A DNA stretch of 12,400 nt, taken from a virus. Taxonomy: Duplodnaviria > Heunggongvirae > Uroviricota > Caudoviricetes. The notes beneath the pieces are model-generated. The model worked only from the letters and a program-made list of their open reading frames with translations. It had not been told where the DNA came from and made no database searches. The translations under genes and the position numbers were made by a program. This document shows positions 1,409 through 11,695 of this stretch, piece by piece (position 1 is the first letter of the stretch; each line of letters begins with the position of its first letter). Location: IMG/VR virus record IMGVR_UViG_2778261689_000004; one strand, given 5' to 3'.

Positions 1409-1621
1409 TCAAAGCGCCACTACATGAACAGCGGCAGGACCTTTAGGTCCGTTCTCAATACCAAATTCAACTTCCTGATTCTCAGTTAATGTTTTGAAAT
1501 CGTTGCTCTGAATTGCTGAGAAATGGACAAACACATCTTTGCTGCCATCTTTCGGCGTGATGAAACCAAAACCTTTTTCAGGGTTAAACCATTTCACTAA
1601 ACCAGTCATTTTGTTAGACAT
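1409..1621 (-). CDS. cspI: Cold-shock protein CspI (CspA family), 70 aa
   Basis: [23 protein letters not shown]... cold-shock domain with both RNP motifs; ATG at 1619-1621, TGA at 1409-1411. Confidence 0.95.
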
Positions 1622-3929: not shown

Positions 3930-3985
3930 TTGATTTTATTAGTAACAAGTATTTTTTATATTTTAATAATATATTTAAAGCAGAT

Positions 3986-4011
3986 AATAAAAAACCCGCC
4001 TGAGCGGGTTT
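3986..4011 (-). terminator. Rho-independent terminator (strong on the minus strand)
   Basis: Stem AAACCCGC / GCGGGTTT with loop CTGA (3992-4011); on the minus strand it is followed by UUUUUUAUUAU. Lies about 280 nt downstream of cspB and 63 nt downstream of the zinc-ribbon ORF. Confidence 0.5.
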
Positions 4012-4292
4012 GAGATTGTGGTGCTTTTTGTGGGAGTCATCCACTTACGCACTTTGTTTTGCCATGCCAGCAGTTAGCTTCTGCTGTAAAACTATTCATG
4101 CAGCAAACCTGCACTTCACCACAATGGTTAGCATACTTTTCCTGATTAAGATTTTGCCAAATATGCTAGCCATTGTTTCATGTATTGGACCTCCTTACTT
4201 TTTATTAAAGAGATCCAATATTCACTACTCTGTCCGTATCTCTACTCAGGCATCAGCCTTCTTCGTTATCGTATACAGACGAGCGATGAATT

Positions 4293-4508
4293 TTAATCAG
4301 TAATGATGACATTTGCTGCTGCAGGACCTTTAGCACCACTCTCTATAGAGAAGGTAACCTTTTGACCTTCAAATAAGGTTCGATAATTATCATTCTGAAT
4401 CGCAGAAAAATGCACAAACACATCTTTACTACCATCAACAGGAGAAATAAAGCCGAAACCTTTATCAGCGTTAAACCATTTTACTAAACCAGTCATTTTA
4501 TTTGACAT
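4293..4508 (-). CDS. cspB: Cold-shock protein CspB (CspA family), 71 aa
   Basis: [38 protein letters not shown]...; AGGA ribosome-binding site; 5' UTR contains GCCGAAAGGC (plus-strand reverse complement at 4528-4537), which I recall as the cspA-family upstream box. Confidence 0.95.
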
Positions 4509-4808: not shown

Positions 4809-5021
4809 TTGTCCCGTAAAATGACAGGAATTGTCAAAACCTTTGACGGCAAAAGCGGCAAGGGTCTTATCACCCCATCCGATGGTCGTATCGATGTCCA
4901 GCTTCATGTTTCAGCGCTCAATCTCCGCGATGCAGAAGAAATTACCACCGGATTACGCGTGGAATTTTGCCGGATAAATGGTCTGCGTGGCCCTTCAGCT
5001 GCCAATGTTTACCTTTCATGA
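4809..5021 (+). CDS. cspF: Cold-shock-domain protein CspF, 70 aa, apparent TTG start
   Basis: Translation [38 protein letters not shown]... requires TTG at 4809; AAGGA lies 6 nt upstream; the first in-frame ATG (4821) is 19 nt from that site. Confidence 0.85.
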
Positions 5022-5442: not shown

Positions 5443-6195
5443 TTATCTCGTCACCTTCCTCAATTGCGCTTCCGCGTATGCTTCTTCCTGCCAGCACTTT
5501 GTTACCAGTTTACCAATGACGTCCGCATACCCCTTATACCACTGATAATCGGTCAGGTCTGGTACCAGCTTCTGGACATGACGTCGTGCCAGCGTGGTCG
5601 GTAAACGACTAAACCGGTTTCCATTACAACGCCCACAAATCTTATATACCGGTACGCCATGAAACCGGGTTCTTTTTTCATCCAGAACAATCCCTTTACC
5701 CTTACACCCTCTGCACGCTGTGCTGGCTTCGCCCTTACCATGGCAATGCTGACATAGTTCCTTCACCCATTCTTCCTTGATTACAGATTCCCCGCGTCTG
5801 TAGTGTTTCACCACTTCGCGCAATACATTATAAAATCCCGTACCTGAACAATGCTCACAGCGAGCCTTACTTGCCGCAGACCTGGAGTAATCAGCAAAGG
5901 CAAAACTCACGAGGTAAGGAATAATCTGTAACCGGATTTCTTCACTCAATTTGTTCAATGTCGGGTTATCCAGTGCCATCGCGTAATTTAGCAGGCCTTC
6001 AATCGCAAACTGAGGGTCCTGAACACCAACTTTTGCCAGAAATAAGGCCAACCCAAGTGGTGCTTTCGACTGCACCATCCCCTGCGCTGCCATTACATCC
6101 GTAATTGTTAAACAACCGGTGCCTGTCGCTGGAGCGTCATCGCTCAATTTTGGAGATTTTGGGGAGTAATATTTTGGTAAGGCTTCAAGGTTCAT
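5443..6195 (-). CDS. quuQ: Lambdoid Q-family late antiterminator, 250 aa
   Basis: Start chosen at ATG 6193-6195 (MNLEALPKYY...) with GGAG upstream; C-terminal Cys-rich motifs (CQHCHGKGE...CRGCKGKG); sits immediately upstream of the candidate late promoter. Confidence 0.85.
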   Translation of the reverse strand: MNLEALPKYYSPKSPKLSDDAPATGTGCLTITDVMAAQGMVQSKAPLGLALFLAKVGVQDPQFAIEGLLNYAMALDNPTLNKLSEEIRLQIIPYLVSFAFADYSRSAASKARCEHCSGTGFYNVLREVVKHYRRGESVIKEEWVKELCQHCHGKGEASTACRGCKGKGIVLDEKRTRFHGVPVYKICGRCNGNRFSRLPTTLARRHVQKLVPDLTDYQWYKGYADVIGKLVTKCWQEEAYAEAQLRKVTR

Positions 6196-6208
6196 GCTCG
6201 TTCTCCAC

Positions 6209-6826
6209 TTACGCCAGTACGCCAATTGCCAGCGCGCGATCGATAAAACGAAATATCAGCTCCAGTTGGGAGCCATACTTATCTTCAAATGCCACTGTAT
6301 CCGTATGCAGCTCGTTGTGATGCTTTCTGCACAAAGGCAACACAAAGAGATCATGTGCTTTTGTTCCCATTCCGCCCTGCCCGTGACCAATCAGATGATG
6401 CGGATCGTCGGCTGGCATACCGCAGCAAGCACACGGCTGTGTCTTAACCCAACGTGTGTATTTCTCCTTAACCCAGCGGCGACGTTTAGGCAGCTTCATG
6501 AAAGATTCCGGAGACTCTGGATCAACGGTGATGCTTACCACCGTCTTTTCCTGTGGTGATTTTTGTTGCTGGTGGGCGTAAGGCAACGGTGCAAGATTTT
6601 TTGTGCGTTGTTTCAATATGCTGGTGGCGGTCTGCTCTCCCGGTACGATGTCGCTTTCGCGGTACACCGAGCAGATTTTTTCCGCTGGTAATCCCAGCGA
6701 ACGACGCGATACAGCCTCAGGTAGTGCATCCACCACCTGATTGCAGACCGCCCACCAGGATAATTCAGCCAAAGATAATTCCCGCTCCTGCGTACCGCTT
6801 ATTGCGTGACGGATGACGTCAATCAC
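6209..6826 (-). CDS. ydfU: DUF968-family prophage protein with Cys/His-rich motif (YdfU-like), 205 aa from a GTG start
   Basis: Motif CACCGMPADDPHHLIGHGQGG...LPLCRKHHNELH (zinc-binding/HNH-like). ORF starts at GTG 6824-6826 with an in-frame stop 25 codons upstream (6902-6904); shorter than the K-12 YdfU I recall. Confidence 0.7.
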   Translation of the reverse strand: MIDVIRHAISGTQERELSLAELSWWAVCNQVVDALPEAVSRRSLGLPAEKICSVYRESDIVPGEQTATSILKQRTKNLAPLPYAHQQQKSPQEKTVVSITVDPESPESFMKLPKRRRWVKEKYTRWVKTQPCACCGMPADDPHHLIGHGQGGMGTKAHDLFVLPLCRKHHNELHTDTVAFEDKYGSQLELIFRFIDRALAIGVLA

Positions 6827-6951
6827 CCATGCTGTCAGATTTTGTTGAGCAAGCAGCTCCAGTGATTCCGATGTCTGGTCCCTCTTATCCCTGCGCGCTA
6901 CTTAAGTATTTTTGATTCTATTCCGGCACCGTCCAGAACTTCAAACGCGTT

Positions 6952-6984
6952 GAAAATAAAAACAAAAACCCGCCGAAGCGGGTT
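6952..6984 (-). terminator. Rho-independent terminator of the relB-relE-hokD operon
   Basis: Stem AACCCGC / GCGGGTT with loop CGAA (6967-6984), followed on the minus strand by UUUGUUUUUAUUUU; about 70 nt downstream of the hokD stop. Confidence 0.6.
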
Positions 6985-7052
6985 AAGTGCGGGTGCGTTG
7001 AGGATGCCTGCCACATCAGAGGTGGCGAGGGATTTCTCCCCCGCCGGGTCTC

Positions 7053-7208
7053 TTACTCCTCAGGTTCGTAAGCTGTGAAGACAGCGACCTCCGTCTGGCC
7101 GGTTCGGATTCGTACCTCGCAGAGGTCTTTCCTCGTTACCAGTGCCGTCACTATGACGGTTAAACAGATGACGATCAGGGCGATTAACATCGCCTTTTGC
7201 TGCTTCAT
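7053..7208 (-). CDS. hokD: Hok-family type I toxin HokD (RelF), 51 aa (below the ORF-track cutoff)
   Basis: Hand translation gives MKQQKAMLIALIVICLTVIVTALVTRKDLCEVRIRTGQTEVAVFTAYEPEE; AGGAG ribosome-binding site upstream; immediately downstream of relE. Confidence 0.9.
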   Translation of the reverse strand: MKQQKAMLIALIVICLTVIVTALVTRKDLCEVRIRTGQTEVAVFTAYEPEE

Positions 7209-7279
7209 AGCCTGCTTCTCCTGTCAACGCAAAGCAGAAGTGTCACCTTCGGTGCGAAACAGAGATGTCATGCTTTGGT

Positions 7280-7567
7280 TCAGAGAATGCGTTTGACCGC
7301 CTCGCTATATACTTCCGAGCGTTCTCTTTTCCCAACAGAAATCACGAAAACGACAACTTTCTCGTCTATAACCTGGTATACAAGGCGATAGCCTGAAGAC
7401 CGGAGCTTAATCTTGTAACAATCAGGCATACCACGGAGCTTGTTTGCTTCAATCCGGGGTGACTCAAGTACTTCAACCAGCTTCTTTTTCAACTGTTCAC
7501 GTACCGTCGAGCCCAGCTTTCGCCATTCCTTTAGTGCCCGCTCGTCAAAATCCAGAAAATACGCCAT
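7280..7567 (-). CDS. relE: RelE mRNA-interferase toxin, 95 aa
   Basis: MAYFLDFDERALKEWRKLGSTVREQLKKKL... matches RelE as I recall it; start overlaps the relB stop. Confidence 0.95.
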   Translation of the reverse strand: MAYFLDFDERALKEWRKLGSTVREQLKKKLVEVLESPRIEANKLRGMPDCYKIKLRSSGYRLVYQVIDEKVVVFVISVGKRERSEVYSEAVKRIL

Positions 7568-7806
7568 CAGAGTTCATCCAGCGTCACACGTACTGGCTTA
7601 GGATTACGAAGCCGTTCTTTCACTATCTCCACAAGTTCAGCATCTTCATCACTCAGGAGTGTCTGTTTGAACGGCAAGCGTTCATTGTCAGCGATATACT
7701 CGAGCATGAGACGAAGCGCTTCAGAAGGAGTTACACCCATTTTTTCAAGCGCGGCGTAAGAACGCGCTTTAAGTTCATCGTCAATACGCAGGTTAATGCT
7801 ACCCAT
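7567..7806 (-). CDS. relB: RelB antitoxin, 79 aa
   Basis: MGSINLRIDDELKARSYAALEKMGVTPSEALRLMLEYIAD... matches RelB as I recall it; ATG at 7804-7806. Confidence 0.95.
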   Translation of the reverse strand: MGSINLRIDDELKARSYAALEKMGVTPSEALRLMLEYIADNERLPFKQTLLSDEDAELVEIVKERLRNPKPVRVTLDEL

Positions 7807-7817
7807 GTCTTACACCT

Positions 7818-7870
7818 CTTGTAATTACAAATGTCATTACAAGTATCGCACTACAACATGCTTAGGGCAA
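7818..7870 (-). promoter_or_regulatory. relBE promoter/operator region (relO-like hexad repeats plus candidate -35 TTGCCC / -10 GATACT)
   Basis: Perfect 12-bp palindrome TTGTAATTACAA (7819-7830), and flanking inverted repeats CTTGTAAT (7818-7825) / ATTACAAG (7836-7843), lie 12-37 bp upstream of the relB ATG; candidate -10 at 7842-7847 and -35 at 7865-7870 with a 17-bp spacer. Confidence 0.55.
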
Positions 7871-8136
7871 GTCACGAAGGAAGTCAGAAAGTAGTCGTAA
7901 GAACGGTGATCACTGTCCGCTTTGTGCCAGGAGCAGCCATTGCTAAGTCCATCCTGTATTGTGCAGGTCAGCTCGTTTTTAAAGAGTCCGGCCATCATCT
8001 TACTGGTACAGACACCATATACTTTGTGACGGTCAGGCTACATATGCACAACTCAACTTATTCATCTATTTTTTGCTTTAGCATGTCAGTGTTGCTTTCT
8101 CGTCGGCGGGTGAGCGGTGACCTGACCTGTCGATAA
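7831..8136 (+). CDS. ydfV: Doubtful ORF overlapping the relBE operator (position of K-12 ydfV), 101 aa
   Basis: ATG-initiated ORF with no ribosome-binding site, starting inside the relO palindromes; low-complexity translation. Listed only because an ORF is annotated here in K-12 as I recall. Confidence 0.25.
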   Translation: MSLQVSHYNMLRASHEGSQKVVVRTVITVRFVPGAAIAKSILYCAGQLVFKESGHHLTGTDTIYFVTVRLHMHNSTYSSIFCFSMSVLLSRRRVSGDLTCR

Positions 8137-8288
8137 AGGAACGTAACACGTTTTATGCAACACCCGCATGCGGCAGAAAATTATTGCCGAACGTTTACCC
8201 CTGTCAACAAGCTTTACTTTCTGAGGCGCGCCAGCCCGCGAGGAAAACAATCTGAACATCAAACAATTAATGACACAAGAAATACGAT

Positions 8289-8315
8289 TAAAGATTTTTT
8301 TGTGCATGCCGATAG
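8289..8315 (+). promoter_or_regulatory. Sigma28 (FliA) class 3 flagellar promoter upstream of flxA
   Basis: TAAAGATT-N11-GCCGATAG against the consensus TAAAGTTT-N11-GCCGATAA; followed by AAAGGAG and the flxA ATG at 8339. Confidence 0.7.
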
Positions 8316-8338
8316 TGCTTTTTTAAAAGGAGAAATCT

Positions 8339-8671
8339 ATGTCTGTCACAATTCAGGGAAATACCTCAACCGTTATTTCAAACAACTCCGCCCCGGAAGG
8401 AACATCAGAAATAGCCAAAATCACAAGACAAATTCAGGTGCTGACTGAAAAGCTTGGGAAAATCTCATCGGAAGAGGGGATGACGACACAGCAGAAAAAA
8501 GAAATGGCTGCATTGGTACAGAAGCAAATTGAAAGCCTCTGGGCTCAACTGGAGCAGTTGTTAAGGCAGCAGGCAGAGAAAAAGAATGAAGACGCGACAG
8601 TTCAGCCTGATAAAAAAGAAGAGAAAAAAGACGATACAAATACCGCTGGCACCATTGATATTTACGTCTAA
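8339..8671 (+). CDS. flxA: FlxA (FliA-regulated protein), 110 aa
   Basis: MSVTIQGNTSTVISNNSAPEGTSEIAKITRQIQVLTEKLGK... matches FlxA as I recall it; preceded by a strong ribosome-binding site and the sigma28 promoter. Confidence 0.9.
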   Translation: MSVTIQGNTSTVISNNSAPEGTSEIAKITRQIQVLTEKLGKISSEEGMTTQQKKEMAALVQKQIESLWAQLEQLLRQQAEKKNEDATVQPDKKEEKKDDTNTAGTIDIYV

Positions 8672-8685
8672 GTGACAGCCGTATT

Positions 8686-8708
8686 GTGGCCCTCATCGGG
8701 CCACTTTT
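8686..8708 (+). terminator. Intrinsic terminator downstream of flxA
   Basis: Stem GTGGCCC / GGGCCAC with loop TCATC, followed by TTTTCG, 15 nt after the flxA stop. Confidence 0.55.
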
Positions 8709-8878
8709 CGCCATCAGCCTTTTCTTTAAAGACATATTATCTTTGTATCATTTCTGATAGTTAACATTACAAGATATAAGTAATGGACGCACTCCCAATT
8801 AGTCTATTTAAATCGCCACGAGTTTAACTGACAACCCATGATCAATTATGAATTGCAACTATTTCTGTAGTCACTTTT

Positions 8879-10719
8879 GTGGGGACAGTCCACAAAACTG
8901 CCAACTTCCGCTTCTTGCTCTTAGCGGACATTAGCATAGGCTATTTACCATAACGCCTCATTACGCGCACCGCCCAGACTGACTCAGCGCGTTTCTGGCA
9001 TATCCCCGGTAAAACAAGTAACAAACCACCCGAAAATGAACACCAGAAACGCGACTTAAGAATCTACCCTATGAATGGATATGCACTCAACCGAATCGAT
9101 CTTGGTTTCAATCTTTTTTATCGGGATCAGGCTTCTTTTTAGGTAACTTCGGGGGCTTAACTTGCTGATGACTTTGCGTTCGGCGCGTAAGCCAGGGATG
9201 GTCAGCTTTAGGTTTAACATAGTATTTTGAGCGTAAATCAATACGGGCATTATCCACTCGTTCATGGACACTCTTTTCATCATCCAGTGGTATAGGCTCC
9301 GGGCCATCAACATACTTTTCCCAGCCCAGCGCTTTCCCGTCATACAGAACGTTAATTTCACCGTCAAAGTTCTCGCATACAGTAACAACCGAATGCCTAA
9401 GTCGATATCCCCGGCCCTCACTGCGTACCTGAAACGCACTGCTTTTGTACTGGAAAGTGAGATTTTTAGACAGAACGCGCTTCGCCTGTAGGCTGAAGAT
9501 ATAACCCAGTTCCTCTTCAGAATGGTGCACATCAAGATGAGCATTATCAGTAGTACGAGGCGACGTAGCGAACCGGTTGTTATAGGCTTCAATAAAGGTC
9601 GGCAACCATGCATTTGCTGTTTCAATATCACTGATATTCTGAAGCCGCATTTCTTTGACCAGCCTGTCCTGTAGTGTCTGATTGGCGCGCTCTACCCGCC
9701 CTTTTGCCTGCGGGCTGTTGGCATGGATTGGCTCGATGCCCAGTGTCTTTATCGCACGAGTGAACTGGGTCAGCTCACCTTCCCGCTCTGGGTTATTTAC
9801 CCTGAATATACTGTGTCTATCAGAGTAGAGAGCGAGCGGTACGCCATGATCATTAAGGTAACCCCGGAGGGTTTCCATGTAAGCCCGGGTTGTTTCAGCA
9901 GGCACAAAACGCAACGCCATCAACGCACTGGTGGCATCATCAATGAAAACGATCAGTGTACATCTGGGGCCTCGATTTTCAAACCAGTCATGAGGTGAGC
10001 CATCAATCTGGATCAGTTCACCGTAAGATGGTCGTCGCATGCGGCGTTGATATATACGGGCAATTTTACGACGGCGTTCACGCCATAACCCCTCTTCTAT
10101 CATCCACTTTCTGAGAGTTTCAACGGATAAAGATAAACCGTGTATCTCGCGCAATTTTTCGCACGCAAACGTAGGTCCAAAATCAGCGTAACGGCCTTTG
10201 AGGAGTGAAATTACTGTTGCTCTGAATTCAGTAGAAAAGGAATTATTAGGACGCTTTCCACGTCGGTGGGAAACCAGACCAGAAGGCCCTTCATTTCTAT
10301 ACCGTTGCACCAGACGTTTAACCTGCCGAATAGAAATGCCAATGCGTGCCGCAGCTTGTTCCTGAATAATCTGAAGTCGGTGGAGTTCCTTATGACTCAT
10401 CGTAACAGTCTCTTTGATCATGAAAAATCCCCCAGAGAATTGTCTGGGGACATTTTAGAATGGTTCAAAGGGGACATTACAGCTTGGTGTTAACAATAGC
10501 CTGCTTCTCCGTGCCTTTCGGCACGTAAGAGGCTAACCTACATGTGTCTAGCATGAAATTGGCCTCAGATTAATGTTAAGCGTCTTGCAGGACGCGTAAT
10601 GTTAACTGGGGCTTTTCTCTATCTGCCGTTGGTGTCCATGCCCGAGGCAGATAGCCTCAAGCACCCGCAGTCATTCTACTTAACTAAGATTTCCCCGCAA
10701 ACCGTTTTTGTCCAGCACA
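8879..10719 (-). mobile_element. IS-like element carrying one DDE transposase gene; ends tentative
   Basis: The 437-aa transposase (9108-10421) is flanked by unusually structured non-coding DNA. Tentative termini are TGTGGGGACA at 8879 and the reverse complement TGTG-CT-GGACA ending at 10719; this short imperfect match is all that supports them. No clear target-site duplication found. Confidence 0.3.
9108..10421 (-). CDS. DDE-type transposase (rve integrase core with N-terminal helix-turn-helix; IS481 / ISNCY-IS1202-like), 437 aa
   Basis: N-terminal HTH-like region (IGISIRQVKRLVQRY), candidate catalytic residues in LIQIDGSPHDWFE, LYSDRHSIF and KGRVERANQTL (D, D, E with downstream basic residues), basic C-terminal tail. 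Not one of the K-12 insertion sequences I can recall. Confidence 0.85.
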   Translation of the reverse strand: MIKETVTMSHKELHRLQIIQEQAAARIGISIRQVKRLVQRYRNEGPSGLVSHRRGKRPNNSFSTEFRATVISLLKGRYADFGPTFACEKLREIHGLSLSVETLRKWMIEEGLWRERRRKIARIYQRRMRRPSYGELIQIDGSPHDWFENRGPRCTLIVFIDDATSALMALRFVPAETTRAYMETLRGYLNDHGVPLALYSDRHSIFRVNNPEREGELTQFTRAIKTLGIEPIHANSPQAKGRVERANQTLQDRLVKEMRLQNISDIETANAWLPTFIEAYNNRFATSPRTTDNAHLDVHHSEEELGYIFSLQAKRVLSKNLTFQYKSSAFQVRSEGRGYRLRHSVVTVCENFDGEINVLYDGKALGWEKYVDGPEPIPLDDEKSVHERVDNARIDLRSKYYVKPKADHPWLTRRTQSHQQVKPPKLPKKKPDPDKKD

Positions 10720-11398: not shown

Positions 11399-11695
11399 TC
11401 ACGTAGGCTCTTTTGGTCGCATGATCTCGCCATCATCACTGGCTGCCTGTTCGTAGAGACCCACGATCCGCCCCCAGATCCACTGCGCACACGCCAAATC
11501 CTCCCTGCTAACGCCAAGCGCTCGCTGATCAATCGCGCCACCTTCATATGTGACACGCTGAACATCGATGTTCGGGCGCTCTTTCAAAGCCCAGAATGCT
11601 TCAGTGATTAATATCGTCGCCTGCTCCTGTGTCATTCCTGGTCGACATATCCAGGCATCCAGAGCCTCACGAGCCTGTTCAGGAGTGATTTTCAT
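11399..11695 (-). CDS. Hypothetical prophage protein downstream of dicC (YdfX-like), 98 aa
   Basis: ATG-initiated ORF overlapping the 3' end of dicC by 17 nt, suggesting translational coupling; position matches ydfX of K-12 Qin as I recall. Confidence 0.55.
   Translation of the reverse strand: MKITPEQAREALDAWICRPGMTQEQATILITEAFWALKERPNIDVQRVTYEGGAIDQRALGVSREDLACAQWIWGRIVGLYEQAASDDGEIMRPKEPT

What the first reader, a model, noticed from the sequence alone, without database searches (positions are those of the whole stretch)
8879..10719. IS-like insertion with a DDE transposase between flxA and the dicC side of the prophage
A 437-aa rve-type DDE transposase (9108-10421, minus strand) sits where I recall K-12 Qin having only about 1.2 kb with the intK/ydfW remnant; the flxA-to-dicC spacing here is about 3.0 kb. 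The protein is none of the K-12 insertion sequences I can recall, and its size and single-ORF layout suggest an IS481 or ISNCY/IS1202-group element. This marks recent mobile-element activity in the cryptic prophage and may have disrupted or moved regulatory DNA next to the dicC side. The ends are unresolved: a weak candidate pair is TGTGGGGACA (8879) and the reverse complement of 10709-10719, and no target-site duplication is evident.
Basis: partly seen in the sequence, partly recalled or inferred. Interest (0 to 1): 0.55.

Follow-up and report, generated by a model that had tools for sequence, protein, structure and literature searches.

The report
relBE transposon inserted into hokD
The transposase gene is real, but it is one end of a 3.3-kb mobile element that also carries relBE, ydfV and flxA and sits exactly on the start of the prophage toxin gene hokD, which explains the origin of the E. 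coli relB-relE-hokD operon and of the K-12 'ydfW/intK' remnant.

Summary
The 437-aa ORF (9108-10421, minus) is confirmed as an IS1202-family (ISNCY, ISEsa1-like) DDE transposase. The proposed ends (8879 and 10709-10719) and 'no target duplication' are wrong.

The element spans 7222-10495 (3,274 bp). It has 19/26 TGT-initiated terminal inverted repeats, a second subterminal repeat at each end, and a perfect 15-bp target duplication (ATAGCCTGCTTCTCC, 7207-7221 and 10496-10510). Its cargo is relE, relB, ydfV and flxA.

It inserted into the ribosome-binding site and start codon of a lambdoid-prophage hok/sok locus. The hokD coding sequence (7053-7208) now lies behind relBE. Its orphaned leader (10496-10666, Rfam sok, 104 bits) lies 3.3 kb away. 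Uninterrupted sites exist in 4,034 of 5,426 E. coli genomes.

K-12 is not an empty site. It keeps the relBE end and carries a deletion from inside the transposase gene (9292) into ydaT, so ydfW is the transposase C-terminus.

The window copy lacks 9 residues of the N-terminal DNA-binding region. Intact 3,301-bp copies (99.8% identical) and variants of 4.2 and 12.8 kb sit in other hok loci on plasmids, each with its own 14-16-bp duplication. This points to hok-targeted transposition, which I did not find described.

The parts
7053..7208 (-). hokD (relF) coding sequence. This is the target gene, now cut off from its own promoter, leader and Sok region and lying directly downstream of relBE.
   Evidence: ORF. 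The translation matches HokD WP_000813254.1, annotated in K-12 and E. coli B.
7207..7221 (.). Left copy of the 15-bp target-site duplication ATAGCCTGCTTCTCC. On the hok strand it reads GGAGAAGCAGGCTAT, the hokD ribosome-binding site plus 'AT' of the ATG.
   Evidence: E. coli B has a single copy at the uninterrupted site.
7222..7247 (+). Right inverted repeat (IRR, the end distal to the transposase): TGTCAACGCAAAGCAGAAGTGTCACC.
   Evidence: Matches the left repeat at 19 of 26 positions (my count). The terminal TGTCAAC is the same as in the Hahella and Scandinavium relatives.
7259..7273 (+). Subterminal second repeat at the IRR end (ACAGAGATGTCATGC). It resembles the inner half of the IRR.
   Evidence: Read from the sequence. 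Second internal binding sites are a described IS1202-family feature (PMC10132070).
7280..7567 (-). relE (mRNA interferase toxin), cargo gene next to the IRR.
   Evidence: ORF; annotated RelE at the same position in K-12 and in plasmid copies.
7567..7806 (-). relB (antitoxin), cargo gene.
7831..8136 (+). ydfV, cargo gene.
8339..8671 (+). flxA, cargo gene.
8903..8932 (.). 30-nt near-palindrome (AACTTCCGCTTCTTGCTCTTAGCGGACATT) at the junction between the transposase module and the cargo. Similarity to copies with other cargo ends here, between 8892 and 8917.
   Evidence: This is roughly where the 1,609-bp ISfinder 'ISEsa1' would end.
9108..10421 (-). Transposase gene, 437 aa. D140, D161, D162, D201, E244 and Q251 are invariant among relatives. 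It lacks 9 residues (SINRHITQE) of the N-terminal helix-turn-helix region because of a 27-bp in-frame deletion between 10359 and 10360. K-12 ydfW corresponds to 9108-9257.
10429..10450 (-). Hairpin followed by ATTTTTCATG, directly upstream of the transposase ATG and overlapping its ribosome-binding site. Inferred to damp read-through expression from outside the element.
   Evidence: terminator-like scan. The function is inferred.
10446..10464 (-). Subterminal second repeat at the IRL end (…ATTCTAAAATGTCCCC on the minus strand).
   Evidence: direct repeat with 10470-10488.
10470..10495 (-). Left inverted repeat (IRL, the end next to the transposase gene): TGTTAACACCAAGCTGTAATGTCCCC on the minus strand.
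   Evidence: All related copies share sequence up to exactly this base.
10496..10510 (.). Right copy of the 15-bp target-site duplication ATAGCCTGCTTCTCC.
10496..10666 (-). Orphaned hok/sok leader: the 5' part of the hok mRNA, including the Sok-complementary region. It now points into the IRL and the transposase gene.
   Evidence: Rfam RF01794, 104.1 bits (gathering 59), E=7.5e-24, model positions 1-157 of 157, ending at the element junction. It is 98% identical to the leader of uninterrupted hokD in E. coli B.

Best explanation
Window 7222-10495 is one IS1202-family transposon, a 'transporter IS' built on an ISEsa1-like transposase. Reading on the + strand it contains IRR, relE, relB, ydfV, flxA, the transposase gene and IRL.

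Shown:
- It inserted by DDE transposition with a 15-bp staggered cut into the ribosome-binding site and start codon of the hok/sok locus of a lambdoid prophage.
- The duplication preserved GGAG…ATG in front of hokD. hokD therefore remained translatable, but it lost its own promoter, its mok/fold-back leader and Sok antisense control.
- It now lies 71 bp behind relE, with no terminator-like site between relE and hokD.
- The leader was left 3.3 kb away, facing the transposase gene.
- K-12 later lost 9293 onward, through the leader and into ydaT, leaving ydfW as the transposase's C-terminal stub.

Inferred:
- The insertion created the known relB-relE-hokD (relBEF) transcription unit.
- This clade prefers the hok translation-initiation region as its target.
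- The window copy is probably crippled by its 9-residue deletion.
- relBE acts as an addiction module for the transposon.
For: 1. Empty site. In E. coli B the leader and hokD are contiguous. Window 6879-7222 and 10496-10686 both map onto it with a 15-16-bp overlap. 4,034 of 5,426 genomes have such an uninterrupted locus. Their matches to the two junction probes stop exactly at 7221/7222 and start exactly at 10496.
2. Ends. The TIRs match at 19/26 and start TGT, each with a second subterminal repeat. These are the described IS1202-family features.
3. Relatives.
 - A 62%-identical transposase in Hahella sits in a 1,449-bp IS present in 10 copies. It has the same TGTTA…/TGTCAAC… ends and 15-17-bp duplications.
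 - A Scandinavium element of 4,275 bp has a perfect 15-bp duplication and a different toxin-antitoxin pair next to its IRR.
4. The whole 3.3-kb unit moves. 3,301-bp copies at 99.8% identity occur on IncI and IncF plasmids of Salmonella, E. coli and Enterobacter. They are flanked by different duplications: CATCATAGCCCCTCCA, ATCATAGCCCCTCCA and TGGCCTTCTTCTCC.
5. Cargo variants with the same ends also have their own duplications: 4,155 bp (16-bp duplication) and 12,843 bp carrying ncr/chr metal resistance (15-bp duplication).
6. Targeting. A full-length Rfam hok-leader hit ends exactly at the IRL in the window and 9 other loci. Those leaders are mostly 55-80% identical to each other, while the element's first 400 nt are 96-100% identical among the ISEsa1-type copies.
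7. Transposase. NF033594 scores 456 bits, and the DDE and Q residues are invariant among relatives.
8. K-12 junction. relBEF co-transcription is published (PMC3598666).
Against: - No transposition experiment exists. Everything here is comparative.
- ISfinder defines ISEsa1 as a 1,609-bp IS with 15/22 TIRs and no duplication. I could not obtain its sequence to check what its right end is.
- Many copies appear as the 1.6-kb transposase module alone, with no duplication.
- Two duplications are short or imperfect: 14 bp in L089, and 13 bp with a 1-nt difference in L090.
- Targeting is not absolute. The Scandinavium element and loci L009, L017 and L034 are not next to hok. L020 has the opposite orientation. 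The Hahella IS shows no target consensus.
- The functional effect of the 9-residue deletion is untested.
Confidence: 0.88

Rival explanations
1. One reading: a simple single-ORF IS of about 1.6-1.8 kb inserted between flxA and the dicC side. Its ends are near 8879-8917 and 10495-10719, and flxA and relBE are ordinary prophage genes outside it.
For: Similarity to copies with other neighbours ends at 8892-8917, close to the 1,609 bp that ISfinder gives for ISEsa1. Two degenerate copies of the AATGTCCCC end motif lie at 8881-8889 and 8924-8932. These could be a vestigial right end of an ancestral simple IS.
Against: No inverted repeat of the IRL and no duplication exists at 8879-8917. The motif copies there are in direct, not inverted, orientation. 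The boundaries are staggered rather than fixed. Where the '1.6-kb' copies were traced further (L094), they continue into other cargo and end at the same relBE-IRR with a duplication. The 3.3-kb unit as a whole is found at new sites with new duplications.
Confidence: 0.06
2. The ORF is the remnant of the Qin prophage integrase, as the K-12 gene name 'intK' (recalled from memory) suggests, and not a transposase.
For: The historical K-12 name for ydfW/intK. Retroviral-integrase-type (rve) folds are shared between integrases and DDE transposases.
Against: NCBIfam ISNCY transposase model at 456 bits. PGAP names intact copies 'IS1202-like element ISEsa1 family transposase'. The gene is flanked by TIRs and a duplication and occurs in multiple copies in other genomes. 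It lies in the middle of the prophage, not at an attachment site.
Confidence: 0.01
3. The structure is right, but the apparent preference for hok start regions is not transposase targeting. It would reflect one or a few ancestral insertions spread by recombination between the many hok loci, or selection for insertions that disarm hok or place it behind relBE.
For: Flank shuffling between copies is visible: L013 and L010 share the IRR-side flank of L007 but have different leaders, and L022 combines the flanks of L010 and L009. hok loci are abundant on plasmids and prophages. Non-hok insertions exist.
Against: Seven complete elements have matching duplications at both ends, with different sequences and lengths (14-16 bp). 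All have one cut just 5' of GGAG of a different hok gene. Recombination would not regenerate matched duplications. Selection for hok inactivation would accept insertions anywhere in about 400 bp, not within ±2 nt.
Confidence: 0.15

Closest known systems
ISEsa1 (ISfinder; IS1202 family / ISNCY, from Cronobacter sakazakii)
   Same: PGAP names the intact plasmid copies of this transposase 'IS1202-like element ISEsa1 family transposase'. The sizes are similar: 446 aa intact against 439 aa listed. The transposase module is about 1.6 kb against 1,609 bp listed.
   Different: ISEsa1 is catalogued as a 1,609-bp IS with 15/22 TIRs and no detectable duplication. Here the mobile unit is 3.3 kb (4.2 and 12.8 kb in variants), has 19/26 TIRs and makes 14-16-bp duplications. 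The catalogued ISEsa1 may be only the transposase module.
ISTde1 subgroup of the IS1202 family (15-17-bp duplications)
   Same: TGT-initiated TIRs, a conserved second region in the repeats, a single transposase of 400-500 aa and 15-17-bp duplications. The Hahella relative behaves exactly this way.
   Different: Harmer et al. place the ISEsa1 transposase in a separate third subgroup with no known duplication. No target specificity or toxin-antitoxin cargo was reported for the ISTde1 subgroup.
ISAjo2/ISAba32 subgroup, which targets dif/pdif (XerC/D) sites
   Same: Same family. Insertion is oriented and site-selective next to a short conserved sequence found on plasmids and chromosomes, and a repeatedly used target can yield adjacent elements.
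   Different: That subgroup makes 5-6-bp duplications 5 bp from a XerC site. This element makes 14-16-bp duplications that cover the ribosome-binding site and ATG of hok genes.
Transporter IS of the family (tISKpn21, tISKpn65, tISRel10)
   Same: IS1202-family elements that carry passenger genes between the transposase and one end.
   Different: Those carry one hypothetical ORF. Here the cargo is a defined toxin-antitoxin pair next to the IRR plus a variable block: ydfV-flxA, or about 10 kb of nickel/chromate resistance genes.
IS150/IS186 insertions beside hokA, hokC and hokE, and the 'major rearrangement' of hokD in K-12 (Pedersen & Gerdes 1999, recalled from memory, not retrieved)
   Same: Chromosomal hok loci of K-12 are disrupted by mobile elements. 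hokD was known to lack its upstream regulatory region and to be the third gene of relBEF.
   Different: As far as I could find, the hokD 'rearrangement' was not resolved as a single transposon insertion with TIRs and a duplication, nor was relBE recognised as transposon cargo.

Membership tests
IS1202 family (ISNCY group IS1202) | Transposase matches the curated family model above its cutoff | tested here: met
   NF033594, 456.4 bits against a cutoff of 250. The IS481, IS21 and IS3 models all score below their cutoffs.
IS1202 family (ISNCY group IS1202) | Single transposase of about 394-507 aa with an N-terminal HTH, a DDE triad with two extra conserved D residues between D1 and D2, and Q seven residues after E | tested here: met
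   437 aa (446 aa intact). HTH Pfam hits. D140, D161, D162, D201, E244 and Q251 are invariant in a 7-sequence alignment.
IS1202 family (ISNCY group IS1202) | Imperfect terminal inverted repeats of about 22-29 bp beginning 5'-TGT | tested here: met
   TGTCAACGCAAAGCAGAAGTGTCACC (7222-7247) against TGTTAACACCAAGCTGTAATGTCCCC (reverse complement of 10470-10495), 19/26.
IS1202 family (ISNCY group IS1202) | Second, subterminal copy of the inner part of the repeat near each end | tested here: met
   10446-10464 against 10470-10488. 7259-7273 against 7233-7247, read.
IS1202 family (ISNCY group IS1202) | Target-site duplication of one of the family's length classes (5-6, 15-17 or 27-28 bp) | tested here: met
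   Perfect 15-bp duplication here. 14-16 bp in six other complete copies. 15-17 bp in the Hahella IS.
ISEsa1 itself (same IS name requires about 95% or more identity to the ISfinder reference) | Sequence identity and the same ends as the ISfinder ISEsa1 entry | not testable with these tools
Only PGAP's product name and the listed length and TIR data could be compared. The listed 'no TSD, 1,609 bp' does not fit the unit defined here.
[quoted passage not shown] | hok mRNA leader with the conserved fold, ending at the hok start codon | tested here: met
   RF01794, 104 bits, full length, at 10495-10666. The same model hits the uninterrupted E. coli B locus at 115 bits.
[quoted passage not shown] | Hok-family toxin ORF directly downstream of the leader | tested here: not met
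   In the window the Hok ORF (7053-7208) is separated from the leader by the 3,274-bp element. They are contiguous only in the empty-site genomes. The locus is therefore split, as the model predicts.
[quoted passage not shown] | Expression of Sok antisense RNA and post-segregational killing | not testable with these tools
   Requires RNA and plasmid-loss experiments.
relBE type II toxin-antitoxin (the cargo) | Adjacent relB and relE genes that match the characterised K-12 pair | tested here: met
   K-12 matches the window at 100% over 6879-9292. RelB WP_000534858.1 and RelE WP_000323025.1 are annotated there and in the plasmid copies.

The most novel reading that the evidence does not exclude
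ISEsa1-type IS1202-family elements are not 1.6-kb insertion sequences. They are cargo-carrying transposons that keep a toxin-antitoxin pair at their right end and insert, in a preferred orientation, into the ribosome-binding site and start codon of hok type I toxin genes. Each insertion strips hok of Sok control, fuses it to the transposon's own toxin-antitoxin operon, and places the transposase gene behind the hok promoter and leader. On this reading, the textbook relBEF operon and part of what is annotated as the 'Qin prophage' in K-12 (relB, relE, ydfV, flxA, ydfW) are the decayed remains of one such event. Relatives of the same transposon currently spread nickel and chromate resistance between hok loci of enterobacterial plasmids.
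Probability: 0.6. Interest if true: 0.72.

Novelty: new variant of a known kind. Interest (0 to 1): 0.62.

Why it matters
- It corrects the annotation of a heavily studied region of E. coli K-12. ydfW/'intK' is a transposase stub, and relBE, ydfV and flxA are transposon cargo rather than native prophage genes.
- It gives a base-pair-level origin for the relBEF operon and for the long-noted loss of hokD's regulatory region.
- It suggests that the only IS1202-family subgroup with 'no target duplication' was mis-delimited.
- It points to a second kind of target selectivity in this family (hok start regions, besides dif sites). This is directly testable and bears on how toxin-antitoxin modules and metal-resistance genes move between plasmids and prophages.

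Tried and rejected
- I looked for an inverted copy of the IRL near 8880-8960. None exists at up to 3 mismatches. Only direct-orientation fragments of the AATGTCCCC motif are there.
- I looked for a duplication around the 1.6-kb module in 20 related loci. None was found except where the distal relBE-type IRR lay within the fetched flank.
- I first read the sequence shared beyond 10495 with plasmid copies (to about 10566) as part of the IS. Rfam showed it is hok leader, meaning target rather than element.
- I tried to trace the element in plasmid p3_LBHALD. Its relBE/IRR end is deleted there. The complete 12.8-kb version was found in p49589CZ_IncFII instead.
- Literature searches for relBE on a transposon, for hok with IS1202, and for ydfW/intK found nothing relevant in the held library. 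Pedersen & Gerdes 1999 could not be retrieved and is cited from memory.
- I did not run structure prediction or the large protein searches, because they would not have changed the conclusions.
Full report
**1. The observation**

The window has a 437-aa ORF at 9108-10421 on the minus strand.
- It scores 456 bits on NCBIfam NF033594 'ISNCY family transposase' (cutoff 250). The IS481, IS21 and IS3 models all fall below their cutoffs.
- Pfam finds N-terminal helix-turn-helix domains and a sub-threshold rve_3 match.
- In an alignment with six relatives down to 41% identity, D140, D161, D162, D201, E244 and Q251 are invariant. This is the DDE pattern, with two extra aspartates and a glutamine seven residues after the glutamate, described for the IS1202 family.

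**2. Comparison with K-12**

K-12 is identical to the window from 6879 to 9292, then jumps into ydaT (ydfX).
- Position 9292 lies inside the transposase gene. K-12 ydfW (window 9108-9257) is simply the last 49 codons of this ORF.
- The K-12 junction joins the transposase gene to a point in ydaT that is still present in E. coli C and O26 but absent from the window.
- K-12 and the window are therefore independent deletion derivatives of a fuller ancestor. The window is not 'K-12 plus an insertion'.
- About 790 of 5,426 complete E. coli genomes carry most of the transposase gene at this locus. The median is one place per genome.

**3. The real ends**

*IRL (the end next to the transposase gene).* Copies of the transposase module in other genera share sequence with the window up to exactly 10495 on the transposase-proximal side. 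On the minus strand the element begins TGTTAACACCAAGCTGTAATGTCCCC. [quoted passage not shown]

*The other side.* Here similarity ends raggedly between 8892 and 8917, at a 30-nt palindrome. No inverted copy of the IRL and no duplication is found there.

*The flank beyond 10495.* This DNA turned out to be a full-length match to Rfam RF01794, the hok/sok leader: 104 bits against a gathering score of 59, model positions 1-157. Its last positions are the hok AUG, right at the junction.

*The empty site.* In E. coli B and thousands of other genomes this leader runs straight into hokD.
- Window 6879-7222 and window 10496-10686 both align to the E. coli B locus. They overlap by 15-16 bp.
- ATAGCCTGCTTCTCC therefore occurs at 7207-7221 and again at 10496-10510. 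It is the only perfect direct repeat of 14 nt or more in the region.

*IRR (the distal end).* Immediately inside the left copy the sequence reads TGTCAACGCAAAGCAGAAGTGTCACC. This matches the IRL at 19 of 26 positions and has its own subterminal repeat.

The inserted unit is therefore 7222-10495, or 3,274 bp. It contains relE, relB, ydfV, flxA and the transposase gene.

**4. Independent support**

- Hahella sp. SMD15-11 has ten copies of a 1,449-bp IS whose transposase is 62% identical. Its ends are TGTTAGCCC…AATGTCCCC and TGTCAACCC…AATGTCCCC, and its duplications are 15-17 bp.
- A Scandinavium hiltneri chromosome has a 4,275-bp relative with a perfect 15-bp duplication. Its IRR ends …CTGCTTTGCGTTGACA. 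Its cargo includes a GNAT/DUF1778 toxin-antitoxin pair next to the IRR.
- The same 3.3-kb relBE element, undeleted at 3,301 bp and 99.8% identical, is present on at least 16 plasmid records of Salmonella, E. coli and Enterobacter.
- In each plasmid copy I examined, the IRR abuts a Hok-family gene and the IRL abuts a hok leader. Each has its own duplication:

| Locus | Element size | Duplication (window orientation) |
|---|---|---|
| Qin (this window) | 3,274 bp | ATAGCCTGCTTCTCC (15 bp) |
| pDEC9B-1 (IncI1) | 3,301 bp | CATCATAGCCCCTCCA (16 bp) |
| Salmonella IncI plasmid | 3,301 bp | ATCATAGCCCCTCCA (15 bp) |
| Enterobacter IncF plasmid (L089) | 3,301 bp | TGGCCTTCTTCTCC (14 bp) |
| Citrobacter cargo variant | 4,155 bp | CATGGCCTTCTTCTCC (16 bp) |
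| E. hormaechei plasmid (relBE + hupE + chrBA + ncrABCY + transposase) | 12,843 bp | CAGGCCTTCTTCTCC (15 bp) |

- In the E. hormaechei plasmid, the IRL of a second transposase module follows directly after the duplication.
- The abundant '1.6-kb ISEsa1' copies on Klebsiella and Enterobacter plasmids match the transposase module of that larger element. This would explain why ISfinder lists ISEsa1 as 1,609 bp without a duplication. I could not check the reference sequence itself.

**5. Target choice**

- A full-length hok-leader hit ends exactly at the IRL in the window and nine other loci.
- Those leaders are mostly 55-80% identical to one another, while the first 400 nt of the element are 96-100% identical among the ISEsa1-type copies.
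- On the hok strand, every duplication starts at or one base before GGAG of the ribosome-binding site and ends 14-16 nt later, at or around the ATG.
- Orientation is the same in all but one locus (L020).
- Matched duplications of different sequence cannot be produced by recombination. Selection for hok inactivation would not demand ±2-nt precision.

I therefore infer that the transposase, or the DNA structure just 3' of the conserved GCC-N4-GGC hairpin, directs insertion there. The preference is not absolute. Scandinavium and loci L009, L017 and L034 are elsewhere, and the Hahella IS shows no consensus. No paper in the held library contains both 'hok' and 'IS1202'.

**6. Consequences at this locus**

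- The duplication leaves GGAGAAGCAGGCTATG in front of hokD. The 51-codon toxin gene keeps its ribosome-binding site but loses its promoter, the mok/leader fold and Sok.
- hokD now lies 71 bp downstream of relE, with no terminator-like site between them. The next such site is at 6967-6984, after hokD.
- This matches the published co-transcription of relB, relE and relF/hokD (PMC3598666). It supplies a mechanism for what I recall Pedersen & Gerdes (1999) calling a major rearrangement of hokD.
- The orphan leader, with its promoter just upstream, now points into the IRL. A hairpin overlapping the transposase ribosome-binding site (10429-10450) may limit such read-through. This last point is inference.

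**7. State of this copy**

- Relative to all plasmid copies and all six aligned relatives, the window's transposase lacks nine residues (SINRHITQE) in the first helix-turn-helix region. The cause is a 27-bp deletion between short TCCTGA repeats. It is otherwise identical to the plasmid protein.
- Both alleles occur at the Qin locus. From the evenly spaced listing, the deleted allele is very roughly twice as common as the undeleted one.
- The relBE-side junction is present in 1,164 genomes and the transposase-side junction in 691. The insertion is old within E. coli and has often been eroded from the transposase side, as in K-12 and O26.
- 'Recent activity in this prophage' is not supported. 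The family, however, is evidently active on plasmids.

**8. Verdict**

What is here is a known kind of element, an IS1202-family transposon, in a form not catalogued as far as I could find. It carries relBE-anchored cargo, makes about 15-bp duplications and prefers hok start regions. Structure and history are well supported (confidence about 0.9). Active targeting is likely (about 0.75) but untested. The functional readings of the hairpin, the 9-residue deletion and relBE as an addiction module are inferences.

Noticed in passing
window 10359/10360: A 27-bp in-frame deletion in the transposase gene, flanked by short TCCTGA direct repeats. It removes 9 residues that are present in all relatives. 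Both the deleted and undeleted alleles occur at the same Qin locus in different E. coli.
   Followed up: partly
window 8903-8960 (and the equivalent positions in L018, L020, L021, L094): A 30-nt palindrome and a strongly conserved CGTTATGGTAAAT motif lie just downstream of the transposase gene. Copies with different cargo diverge here. In L094 the motif is repeated on both sides of a small ORF. This may be a cargo-exchange or regulatory site. Function unknown.
   Followed up: partly
window 10622-10629; L002 (E. coli C) 5630-6848; also L004, L007, L015: IS3-family elements (ISSen4 in E. coli C, and related ends TGTACTGACCCC… elsewhere) are inserted in the same hok leaders, a few tens of bases upstream of the ISEsa1-type insertion point. 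hok leaders seem to be a general hotspot for insertion sequences.
   Followed up: no
L094 (p49589CZ_IncFII) 20417-20483; same as L092 2283-2299: The IRR of a 12.8-kb element and the IRL of a second transposase module are separated by exactly the 15-bp target sequence. This is a tandem arrangement, as expected if the duplicated target is hit again.
   Followed up: partly
window 11508/11509 and 11404-11510: The window has its own deletion joining a fragment of the prophage 'hypothetical protein' gene to ydaT. It lacks 91 bp of ydaT that K-12 retains, so neither configuration is ancestral to the other.
   Followed up: partly
window 6879/6880: Relative to K-12, the window lacks about 1.0 kb inside ydfU (DUF968). 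The ORF here is 205 aa (6209-6826), against the 349-aa product annotated in K-12.
   Followed up: no
L005 (O26:H11) around 3983-4052; window 10455-10524: In O26-type genomes the DUF977 gene is annotated as running into the IRL and leader region, and similarity to the window stops at 10524. This is another deletion or fusion at the transposase-side junction.
   Followed up: no
L017 2837-2950: An Rfam isrO (Hfq-binding sRNA) hit overlaps the IRL junction of a non-hok copy in Kluyvera. This could be another structured-RNA gene used as a target, or a coincidence.
   Followed up: no
window 1409-1621, 4293-4508, 4809-5021: Three cold-shock-protein (Csp-family) ORFs lie in the prophage late region, two on the minus strand and one on the plus strand. 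This is ordinary for Qin-like prophages.
   Followed up: no
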